From: Escherichia coli
GTDB lineage: Bacteria; Pseudomonadota; Gammaproteobacteria; Enterobacterales; Enterobacteriaceae
DNA length: 46,318 bases
Reading direction: 5' to 3' (one strand)
Assembly: GCF_003334315.1 (NCBI RefSeq)
Contig: NZ_QOWR01000036.1
The translations under genes and the position numbers were made by a program. The number at the start of each line of letters is the position of its first letter. The first letter of the stretch is position 1. Below the pieces are notes generated by a model. The model worked only from the letters and a program-made list of their open reading frames with translations. It was not told the DNA's origin and made no database searches. This document shows, in pieces, positions 34,874-35,758 of the stretch.

Positions 34874-35758
34874 TCGGTTAATCACATTTTGTTCGTCAAT
34901 AAACATACAGCGATTTCTTCCGGTTTGCTTACCCTCATACATTACCCGGTCTGCTCTTCCAATGACCACATCCAGAGGCTCTTCAGGAAATGCGCGACTG
35001 ACACCTGCTGTCACGGTAATGTTGATATGCCCTTCAGAATGTGTGATGGCATGGTTATCGACTAACTGGCAAATTCTGACACCTGCACGACATGCTTCTT
35101 CATCATTAGCCGCTTTGACAATAATGATAAATTCTTCGGCCCCGTAGCGATAAACCGTTTCGTAATCACGCGTCCAACTGGCTAAGTAAGTTGCCAGGGT
35201 GCGTAATACTACATCGCCGATTAAATGCCCGTAGGTATCATTAACCAATTTAAATCGGTCAATATCCAACAACATTAAATAAAGATTCAGAGGCTCAGTG
35301 TTGCGTAACTGATGATCAAAGGATTCATCAAGAACCCGACGCCCCGGCAATCCCGTCAAAACATCCATATTGCTACGGATCGTCAGCAAATAAATTTTGT
35401 AATCGGTTAATGCCGCAGTAAAAGAAAGCAACCCCTCCTGAAAGGCGTCGAAATGCGCGTCCTGCCAGTGATTTTCAACAATAGCCAGCATTAATTCCCG
35501 AGCACAGTTATGCATATGTTGATGGGCAGAATCCATTAGCCGAACGTAAGGTAATTCATCGTTATCGAGTGGCCCCAGATGATCAATCCACCGACCAAAC
35601 TGGCACAGTCCATAAGAATGGTTATCCGTTATTTCTGGCTTACTGGCATCTCTCGCGACCACGCTGTGAAACATACTCACCAGCCACTGGTAGTGGGCAT
35701 CGATAGCCTTATTGAGATTTAACAAGATGGCATCAATTTCCGTTGTCTTCTTGATCAT
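34868..35758 (-). CDS. dgcZ: zinc-regulated diguanylate cyclase DgcZ (YdeH), 296 aa, with a non-canonical GAEEF motif
   Basis: N-terminal zinc-binding domain plus GGDEF domain; start MIKKTTEIDAILL; signature reads RYGAEEF (codon gcc, revcomp of 35138..35140) instead of GGEEF. Confidence 0.9.
   Translation of the reverse strand: MIKKTTEIDAILLNLNKAIDAHYQWLVSMFHSVVARDASKPEITDNHSYGLCQFGRWIDHLGPLDNDELPYVRLMDSAHQHMHNCARELMLAIVENHWQDAHFDAFQEGLLSFTAALTDYKIYLLTIRSNMDVLTGLPGRRVLDESFDHQLRNTEPLNLYLMLLDIDRFKLVNDTYGHLIGDVVLRTLATYLASWTRDYETVYRYGAEEFIIIVKAANDEEACRAGVRICQLVDNHAITHSEGHINITVTAGVSRAFPEEPLDVVIGRADRVMYEGKQTGRNRCMFIDEQNVINRV

What the first reader, a model, noticed from the sequence alone, without database searches (positions are those of the whole stretch)
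35129..35143. dgcZ carries GAEEF in place of the canonical GGEEF active-site motif
Direct translation of the minus strand gives T-V-Y-R-Y-G-A-E-E-F, with codon gcc (Ala) at the second glycine position. Counting back from the C-terminus places the motif at residues 206-210, where DgcZ normally has GGEEF. The glycines of GG(D/E)EF contact the GTP substrate, so a Gly-to-Ala change there is expected to reduce or abolish c-di-GMP synthesis. The neighbouring cyclase dgcF retains GGEEF. The rest of the gene, including the zinc-binding N-terminal domain, is intact.
Basis: partly seen in the sequence, partly recalled or inferred. Interest (0 to 1): 0.55.

Follow-up and report, generated by a model that had tools for sequence, protein, structure and literature searches.

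The report
Rare dgcZ allele with GAEEF motif
A small clone of E. coli carries a real but rare point mutation (Gly207 to Ala) in the catalytic GGEEF motif of the well-known signalling enzyme DgcZ, which very probably cripples that one enzyme; it is an ordinary loss-of-function allele rather than a new kind of system.

Summary
dgcZ (window 34868-35758, minus strand, 296 aa) reads Y-G-A-E-E-F at residues 205-210, and codon 207 is GCC instead of GGC (base 35139).

It is not a sequencing error. The identical protein has four GenBank accessions and also appears in an independent assembly of run SRR25039418.

It is rare. None of 5,426 complete E. coli genomes carries the variant 31-mer, whereas 4,782 carry the wild-type one. 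All 104 full-length orthologues have Gly207.

G86A is inherited from a wider parent lineage. A272V is specific to the clone, like G207A.

G-to-A at the second glycine of GG(D/E)EF is a standard engineered "active-site" mutation, used in Vibrio fischeri DGCs and V. cholerae CdgA G287A. A natural GADEF protein (VC1934) is regarded as non-functional. The likeliest effect is therefore strong loss of DgcZ cyclase activity, and so loss of DgcZ input to poly-GlcNAc biofilm control. This was not assayed here.

GAEEF also occurs once on an unrelated E. coli background. However, 3 of 10 random missense controls are also in the database, so this recurrence is no evidence of selection.

Interest is low: a predicted null or hypomorphic allele of a known gene.

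The parts
34868..35758 (-). dgcZ (ydeH) coding sequence, 296 codons plus stop. Encodes the zinc-sensory diguanylate cyclase DgcZ.
   Evidence: ORF. It is 99.7% identical to annotated dgcZ in complete genomes. It matches the NCBIfam NF007380 equivalog at 513.7 bits against a cut-off of 256. It matches PDB 4H54 (YdeH) at E=5e-200. The gene order dcp-ydeJ-ydeI-dgcZ-mgtT-mgtS-ydeE is the same as in K-12.
35129..35143 (-). GAEEF, in place of the catalytic GGEEF motif (residues 206-210).
35138..35140 (-). Codon 207, GCC (Ala) instead of GGC (Gly). The variant base is 35139, a G:C>C:G transversion. It is specific to this clone.
   Evidence: The variant 31-mer is in 0 of 5,426 complete genomes, against 4,782 for the wild-type 31-mer. 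It is absent from parent-lineage contigs L016, L018 and L019.
35501..35503 (-). Codon 86, GCT (Ala) instead of GGT (Gly). It lies in the CZB domain, three residues after zinc ligand H83. It is inherited from a wider parent lineage.
   Evidence: It is in 0 of 5,426 complete genomes. The G86A-only protein P0151 is listed for 17 contigs, with 24 contigs read from 34 index blocks, and shares ydeJ G125A with the window. The residue is invariant in 104 orthologues but variable in distant CZB domains, where Ala occurs in 6 of 34.
34943..34945 (-). Codon 272, GTA (Val) instead of GCA (Ala). It lies in the conserved R-A-D-x-A-M-Y-x-x-K helix of the GGDEF domain. It is specific to this clone relative to the parent lineage.
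   Evidence: It is in 0 of 5,426 complete genomes. Ala is found in 104 of 105 aligned homologues; the exception, P0027, is misaligned there. Ala is found in 206 of 245 diverse GGDEF domains. The A272V-only protein P0153 occurs on at least 4 flanking haplotypes.
35375..35758 (-). CZB (chemoreceptor zinc-binding) sensor domain, residues 1-128. The zinc ligands H22, C52, H79 and H83 are all present.
   Evidence: Domain limits are from PMC8262984. The ligands are invariant and present. There is a precomputed Pfam PF13682 hit.
34871..35374 (-). GGDEF catalytic domain, residues 129-296.
   Evidence: Pfam PF00990. TIGR00254 covers residues 128-285. PDB 3TVK covers residues 127-296.
22815..23762 (-). 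dgcF (yneF), the neighbouring putative cyclase, 315 aa. GGEEF is retained. It serves as the comparison gene in the finding.
   Evidence: ARMGGEEFAV. It has the same length as K-12 b1522. It has no window-private SNP.

Best explanation
This is a genuine, rare allele of the known E. coli diguanylate cyclase gene dgcZ. It is carried by a small clone (GCA_003334315.1 and a few sister assemblies).

On a lineage background that already had G86A in the zinc-sensor domain, the clone acquired G207A and A272V. G207A turns the catalytic GGEEF hairpin into GAEEF. A272V lies in the conserved C-terminal helix of the catalytic domain.

Inferred mechanism: the second glycine of GG(D/E)EF sits in the tight beta-hairpin that forms the GTP half-site. 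A side chain at that position disturbs substrate positioning, so the DgcZ homodimer makes little or no c-di-GMP however the zinc/HOCl sensor is set.

The strain would therefore lack DgcZ's contribution to poly-GlcNAc (PGA) biofilm formation, and to the motility control attributed to DgcZ. The rest of its c-di-GMP network is untouched as far as the window shows; for example, dgcF keeps GGEEF.

Shown here: the sequence change, its reproducibility, its rarity, the conservation of the residue, and the order of the mutations.
Inferred: the loss of enzyme activity and the resulting phenotype.
For: - Sequence and numbering.
- Reproducibility: four GenBank accessions plus an independent SRA-run assembly carry the identical allele.
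- Rarity: 0 of 5,426 complete genomes carry the variant 31-mer, against 4,782 for the wild-type one.
- Conservation: Gly207 is invariant in 104 orthologues down to 58% identity. It is Gly in 232 of 245 diverse GGDEF domains, and Ala appears only in motifs that are otherwise degenerate.
- Experiments on the same substitution in other cyclases: V. fischeri MifA, VF_A0057, VF_A0152 and VF_A0398 lose their effects on cellulose and motility (PMC11575326). V. cholerae CdgA G287A behaves as inactive (PMC3359988). The natural GADEF protein VC1934 is called non-functional (PMC11194511).
- The neighbouring residue change E208Q is the standard catalytically inactive DgcZ, and DgcZ c-di-GMP regulates poly-GlcNAc (PMC8262984).
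- Order of events: the G86A-only allele is on 24 or more contigs that share ydeJ G125A and bases 38074 and 33111 with the window. Those contigs differ from the window over 20.9 kb only at 35139, 34944 and two yneK sites, apart from their own private SNPs.
Against: - No enzymatic or phenotypic data exist for DgcZ G207A. In the V. fischeri work the effect was 'drastically reduced', not shown to be zero, so residual activity is possible.
- The role of the glycine backbone in GTP binding is taken from general knowledge of PleD/WspR-type structures. It was not examined on coordinates here.
- Reads were not inspected.
- The pgaABCD, csrA and ycgR loci lie outside the window, so whether the pathway downstream of DgcZ is present in this strain is unknown.
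Confidence: 0.72

Rival explanations
1. Adaptive, stepwise remodelling or inactivation of DgcZ. In this reading, selection in the clone's niche favoured loss or alteration of DgcZ signalling, which would explain why three orthologue-invariant residues are hit in one 891-bp gene.
For: - 3 of 10 window-private SNPs in 41.5 kb fall in dgcZ, which is 2.1% of the sequence; binomial P=0.001.
- All three substitutions are nonsynonymous and at invariant positions, while only 85 of 296 positions are invariant; P=0.024.
- GAEEF arose a second time on an unrelated background, L020, which differs from the window at 88 sites over 12 kb.
Against: - After correcting for the fact that G207A is what drew attention to the gene, the statistics are weak. 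P=0.015 for at least 2 of the other 9 SNPs in dgcZ. P=0.12 on the clone-specific branch. P=0.08 for the other two substitutions hitting invariant sites.
- G86A is an older lineage marker and is tolerated in distant CZB domains.
- 3 of 10 random missense controls on the same background are also in the database at 1-2 contigs each, so a second GAEEF singleton is at the base rate.
- The clone's other private changes are also mostly nonsynonymous (7 nonsynonymous to 2 synonymous), as expected for recent, weakly purged mutations.
Confidence: 0.1
2. Functionally near-neutral polymorphism: GAEEF DgcZ keeps enough cyclase activity for normal physiology.
For: - Gly to Ala is the smallest possible side-chain change.
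- The first position of the motif is known (from my own knowledge) to tolerate Ala or Ser in some active cyclases.
- The allele persists in several isolates.
- The ORF, promoter region and zinc ligands are unchanged.
Against: - Every experimental G-to-A at the second position that was found gave loss of function.
- No orthologue, and no otherwise canonical GGDEF domain in the sample of 245, has Ala there.
- A second conserved catalytic-domain residue, A272, is also changed.
Confidence: 0.12
3. Sequencing or assembly artefact at a G-run: wild type is GGGGGC and the variant is GGGGCC.
For: The change sits at the end of a five-G homopolymer. The same change is seen on an unrelated background, which a systematic error could also produce.
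Against: - The identical allele appears in four GenBank assemblies and in an independently assembled SRA run.
- In the GenBank assemblies, the YneK and LsrC variants carry the same four accession series as the DgcZ allele.
- The variant is absent from all 5,426 complete genomes and from parent-lineage contigs with the same local sequence, so it is not a context-driven recurrent error.
Confidence: 0.03
4. Change of role: the catalytically dead protein is kept as a zinc/HOCl-responsive scaffold or c-di-GMP-binding protein, as degenerate GGDEF proteins are elsewhere.
For: - The ORF is full length with intact zinc ligands.
- A report that an N-terminally truncated DgcZ affects EPEC type III secretion, possibly through protein-protein contacts, shows that non-catalytic effects are conceivable (PMC13131220).
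Against: - The degenerate motif is not fixed in any orthologue group (104 of 104 have GGEEF).
- The allele is confined to a tiny clone, so there has been no time for a new function to be maintained.
- No partner or new motif is evident.
Confidence: 0.03

Closest known systems
E. coli DgcZ (YdeH), the CZB-GGDEF zinc- and HOCl-sensory diguanylate cyclase (PDB 4H54, 3T9O, 3TVK)
   Same: It is the same gene at the same locus. It has 296 aa and differs from the K-12 protein at four residues (G86A, A154T, G207A, A272V). The zinc ligands H22/C52/H79/H83 are the same, and it passes the NCBIfam equivalog model.
   Different: The catalytic motif reads GAEEF instead of GGEEF. There are also G86A near the zinc site and A272V in the catalytic domain. 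None of these three is in any of 5,426 complete genomes.
Engineered GG(D/E)EF to GA(D/E)EF active-site mutants (V. fischeri MifA, CasA and others; V. cholerae CdgA G287A), and DgcZ E208Q
   Same: The engineered mutants carry the same substitution at the same motif position. They are used precisely because the change removes cyclase-dependent phenotypes. E208Q, at the adjacent residue, is the standard inactive DgcZ.
   Different: Those are laboratory constructs in other proteins. This allele is natural and chromosomal, is in DgcZ, and has not been assayed.
Naturally degenerate GGDEF domains (for example V. cholerae VC1934 with GADEF, or the second domains of multi-GGDEF proteins)
   Same: The motif is non-canonical at the second glycine and cyclase activity is presumed absent.
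   Different: Those domains are evolutionarily fixed and usually have other roles or partner domains. Here the change is a recent mutation in one clone of a species whose orthologues all keep GGEEF.

Membership tests
DgcZ orthologue group (NCBIfam NF007380 / PRK09894 equivalog) | Full-length match above the curated cut-off | tested here: met
   513.7 bits against a cut-off of 256, covering residues 1-296 of 296.
DgcZ orthologue group (NCBIfam NF007380 / PRK09894 equivalog) | Conserved chromosomal position (dcp-ydeJ-ydeI-dgcZ-mgtT/mgtS-ydeE) | tested here: met
   The gene order is the same as in K-12 and in four close complete genomes.
DgcZ orthologue group (NCBIfam NF007380 / PRK09894 equivalog) | N-terminal CZB domain with the 3His/1Cys zinc site (H22, C52, H79, H83) | tested here: met
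   All four ligands are present and are invariant in 105 aligned homologues. There is a Pfam PF13682 hit. The domain description comes from PMC8262984.
Catalytically competent GGDEF diguanylate cyclases | Intact GG(D/E)EF signature | tested here: not met
   The motif reads GAEEF. The position is Gly in 104 of 104 orthologues and in 232 of 245 diverse domains.
Catalytically competent GGDEF diguanylate cyclases | Other conserved catalytic-domain residues (R204, E208, E209, F210, K277, G280, R281) | tested here: met
   All are present in the window protein. The exception is the conserved helix residue A272, which is Val here.
Catalytically competent GGDEF diguanylate cyclases | Measured synthesis of c-di-GMP from GTP | not testable with these tools
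   This needs an enzyme assay or an in vivo c-di-GMP reporter.
Evolutionarily degenerate (receptor or scaffold) GGDEF proteins | Degenerate motif maintained across an orthologue group | tested here: not met
   All 104 orthologues keep GGEEF. GAEEF is confined to one small clone plus one unrelated singleton.

The most novel reading that the evidence does not exclude
The clone's dgcZ may have been hit repeatedly because loss or rewiring of DgcZ signalling was selected. Alternatively, a localised, clustered mutation or short-tract recombination process may have acted on this chromosomal segment.

Features that point this way:
- Three orthologue-invariant residues are changed in one gene.
- The four clone-specific SNPs in 20.9 kb are all nonsynonymous and fall in two tight pairs: dgcZ, 195 bp apart, and yneK, 276 bp apart. 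A simulation gives P=0.0024 for such pairing.
- Three rare G:C>C:G transversions, all Gly>Ala, lie within 1.9 kb.
Probability: 0.1. Interest if true: 0.4.

Novelty: already known. Interest (0 to 1): 0.2.

Why it matters
If the prediction holds, this clone is a natural DgcZ-null or hypomorph. It would be a ready-made strain for asking what DgcZ (zinc/HOCl-controlled poly-GlcNAc biofilm signalling) contributes in a wild genetic background. It would also add one data point on how individual cyclases are lost from the E. coli c-di-GMP network.

It does not reveal a new mechanism, gene or system. The control look-up shows that with present sampling roughly a third of arbitrary missense variants of this gene already exist in public data. 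Single active-site variants like this are therefore expected background. They matter mainly as a caution for annotation: the protein is still named 'diguanylate cyclase DgcZ'.

Tried and rejected
1. Sequencing error. Rejected because the identical allele occurs in several assemblies and in an independent SRA-run assembly.

2. Common polymorphism. Rejected: 0 of 5,426 complete genomes carry it, and the positive control worked.

3. Import by recombination from a divergent lineage. Unlikely for G207A and G86A, because none of the three variants exists in any complete genome and all changes are nonsynonymous with no accompanying synonymous differences. It cannot be excluded for A272V, which circulates on at least 4 haplotypes.

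4. Recurrence of GAEEF as a sign of selection. I first misread P0153 as the G207A-only protein. Checking the sequences showed that P0153 is A272V-only and P0154 is G207A-only. The single independent GAEEF occurrence is at the base rate set by 10 random missense controls, of which 3 were present.

5. Searches for intermediates. No double mutant (G86A+G207A, G86A+A272V or G207A+A272V) is in the 15-billion-protein collection, so the order of the last two steps is unresolved.

6. Literature. No paper mentions accession QOWR00000000. No paper combines 'GGDEF motif', 'second glycine' and 'GTP'. The MMBR review I wanted (PMC3591986) is not held, and the T. maritima DGC structure paper does not discuss the glycines. 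The structural role of Gly207 therefore rests on general knowledge.

7. Structure prediction was not run, because AlphaFold-type models are insensitive to single substitutions.

Full report
**What is there**

The window is contig QOWR01000036.1 of E. coli assembly GCA_003334315.1. On the minus strand, 35758..34868 encodes a 296-aa protein. It matches annotated dgcZ in complete E. coli genomes at 99.7% DNA identity. It matches the crystal-structure sequence of YdeH/DgcZ (PDB 4H54) at E=5e-200. It also passes the NCBIfam DgcZ equivalog model at 513.7 bits against a cut-off of 256. The gene order dcp-ydeJ-ydeI-dgcZ-mgtT-mgtS-ydeE-eamA-marB is that of K-12.

The bases 35143..35129 read ggg gcc gaa gaa ttt, which is G-A-E-E-F at residues 206-210. 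K-12 and the closest complete genomes have GGC at codon 207, so the change is a single G:C>C:G transversion at base 35139.

**Is it real and how rare is it**

- The exact protein sequence has four NCBI accessions (HAH2847571.1, HAI0837155.1, OWD49492.1, RCQ27069.1).
- It was read on six contigs. One is a Logan assembly of run SRR25039418 whose 1,086 bp are identical to the window.
- The clone's private YneK and LsrC variants carry accessions from the same four series. This is an inherited allele of a small clone, not a random miscall.
- A 31-mer centred on the variant finds nothing in 5,426 complete E. coli genomes. The wild-type 31-mer finds 4,782.

Against the nearest complete-genome allele (strain HS30-1), dgcZ differs at three bases, all nonsynonymous:
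- G86A (GGT>GCT, base 35502)
- G207A (base 35139)
- A272V (GCA>GTA, base 34944)

31-mers for G86A and A272V are also absent from all complete genomes. In an alignment with 104 full-length orthologues from Escherichia and Citrobacter, down to 58% identity, all three positions are invariant. Only 85 of 296 positions are invariant in that set.

In a deeper sample of 245 GGDEF domains and 34 CZB domains from 50%-identity cluster representatives:
- Position 207 is Gly in 232 domains. Ala occurs in only two, both otherwise degenerate (QADEF, DADRF).
- Position 272 is Ala in 206 domains.
- Position 86 is not conserved (Gly 9, Cys 6, Ala 6 of 34).

So G86A is probably mild. A272V hits the conserved A-D-x-A-(L/M)-Y-x-x-K helix of the catalytic domain. 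G207A hits the signature motif itself.

**History of the allele**

I polarised SNPs with four close complete genomes (ET220, HS30-1, NT1F31, CP53; 41,527 shared bases). The window has ten private SNPs:

| Base | Gene | Change |
|---|---|---|
| 15830 | lsrC | V302M |
| 17750 | lsrB | synonymous |
| 27893 | yneK | R75W |
| 28169 | yneK | V167I |
| 33111 | intergenic | - |
| 34944 | dgcZ | A272V |
| 35139 | dgcZ | G207A |
| 35502 | dgcZ | G86A |
| 37054 | ydeJ | G125A |
| 38074 | dcp | synonymous |

Exact-sequence look-ups of constructed intermediates gave:
- The G86A-only protein (P0151) exists. It is listed for 17 contigs, and 24 contigs were read from 34 index blocks. Its contigs share ydeJ G125A and bases 38074 and 33111 with the window.
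- Three such contigs (L016, L018, L019) differ from the window over as much as 20.9 kb only at 35139, 34944 and the two yneK sites, apart from their own private SNPs.
- G86A is therefore an older lineage marker, and G207A plus A272V are specific to the clone.
- The A272V-only protein (P0153) is on 14 contigs with at least four different flanking haplotypes.
- The G207A-only protein (P0154) is on two contigs. One was retrieved (GCA_033051535.1, L020). Its flanks differ from the window at 88 sites in 12 kb, and it uses codons GCC GAG. GAEEF therefore arose at least twice.
- No double mutant is in the collection.

I initially swapped P0153 and P0154. fixes the assignment.

**Is there evidence of selection**

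Taken at face value, three of ten private SNPs in a gene that covers 2.1% of the sequence gives P=0.001, and three hits on invariant residues gives P=0.024. But the gene was chosen because of one of these hits.
- Conditional on that hit, the figures are P=0.015 for at least 2 of the other 9 SNPs and P=0.08 for the invariant sites.
- On the clone-specific branch, the chance that one of the other three SNPs also lies in dgcZ is 0.12.
- As a calibration, I looked up ten randomly drawn single-nucleotide missense variants of the same background allele. Three (D132A, D37E, T187S) are already in the collection on one or two contigs each. A second, singleton GAEEF is therefore what deep sampling of E. 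coli predicts, not a sign of parallel adaptation.

One oddity remains. The four clone-specific SNPs are all nonsynonymous and fall into two tight pairs, 195 bp apart in dgcZ and 276 bp apart in yneK. A simulation gives P=0.0024 for such pairing. In addition, three rare G:C>C:G transversions, all Gly>Ala, lie within 1.9 kb (bases 37054, 35502, 35139). The yneK variants each occur in 6-7 other complete genomes, so short recombination tracts may explain that pair. The dgcZ pair is unexplained.

**Likely effect**

The second glycine of GG(D/E)EF is the residue that several laboratories mutate to alanine to inactivate cyclases.
[quoted passage not shown] MifA and others became GAEEF (PMC11575326).
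- V. cholerae CdgA G287A (GADEF) no longer drove VpsT localisation or reduced motility in E. coli (PMC3359988).
- The natural GADEF motif of VC1934 is described as non-functional (PMC11194511).
- For DgcZ itself, the adjacent E208Q is the standard catalytically inactive control. DgcZ-made c-di-GMP regulates poly-GlcNAc synthesis and HOCl- and zinc-responsive biofilm formation (PMC8262984).

From general knowledge of PleD/WspR-type structures (not tested here), the two glycines form the turn of the beta-hairpin that lines the GTP half-site, which leaves no room for a side chain.

The best reading is therefore a strongly hypomorphic or null DgcZ, possibly worsened by A272V. The expected consequence is loss of DgcZ-dependent PGA biofilm and of its HOCl/zinc response. 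The promoter and 5' region carry no private change, so the inactive protein is presumably still made. dgcF, the other cyclase gene in the window, keeps GGEEF and has the K-12 length.

**Comparison with what is known, and verdict**

This is DgcZ by every membership criterion except the one that defines an active cyclase, the intact GG(D/E)EF motif. It resembles laboratory GA(D/E)EF mutants and naturally degenerate GGDEF domains. Unlike the latter, it is a recent, clone-restricted mutation, because every orthologue keeps GGEEF.

Nothing about it is a new kind of system. The allele is already in public databases, where it is still named 'diguanylate cyclase DgcZ'. It has modest value as a candidate natural DgcZ-null strain and as an annotation caveat.

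Interest is about 0.2. The most novel reading not excluded is selection for multi-hit loss of DgcZ, or a clustered mutational process. I give that about 10% probability.

Noticed in passing
window 37054, 35502, 35139: Three G:C>C:G transversions, normally the rarest substitution class, lie within 1.9 kb. All three change Gly to Ala at the second codon position: ydeJ G125A, dgcZ G86A and dgcZ G207A. The first two are shared with the parent lineage and the third is specific to the clone.
   Followed up: partly
window 27893 and 28169 (yneK, + strand 27671-28786): There are two clone-specific nonsynonymous changes 276 bp apart, R75W and V167I. Each is present in a different small set of complete genomes (7 and 6). 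Together with the dgcZ pair, they make all four clone-specific SNPs in 20.9 kb nonsynonymous and pairwise clustered; simulation P=0.0024.
   Followed up: partly
window 22815-23801 (dgcF): In all four closest complete genomes, RefSeq annotates dgcF as a pseudogene ('partial, missing N-terminus'; HS30-1 also has an internal stop). Yet the window ORF (315 aa, TTG start, GGEEF intact) has the same length as K-12 b1522. Whether this short form is a functional cyclase is unclear.
   Followed up: partly
window 44200-45865 and 1-454: Beyond about base 44200 (inside ydfJ) the window aligns with NT1F31 and CP53, where ydfJ is 5'-truncated next to prophage tail-fibre genes. It does not align there with ET220 or HS30-1, which have intact ydfJ-rspB-rspA. 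The first 453 bases align with none of the four relatives. This suggests prophage or insertion boundaries at both ends of the contig.
   Followed up: no
L009-L015 (A272V-only dgcZ contigs): The DgcZ A272V protein occurs on at least four different flanking haplotypes. Some carry a PTS/glycoside-hydrolase island between eamA and marB. This points to recurrent C>T mutation or to spread of the allele by recombination.
   Followed up: partly
window about 4575-9994 (autotransporter between lsrK and hipB): The ECSE_1600-family autotransporter at this position is annotated as frameshifted in all four close relatives. Its state in the window was not examined.
   Followed up: no
window 34751-34848 region (between dgcZ and mgtT): K-12 annotates the small RNA MgrR immediately downstream of dgcZ, overlapping the end of mgtT. 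The corresponding window sequence shows no private SNP, but it was not analysed further.
   Followed up: no
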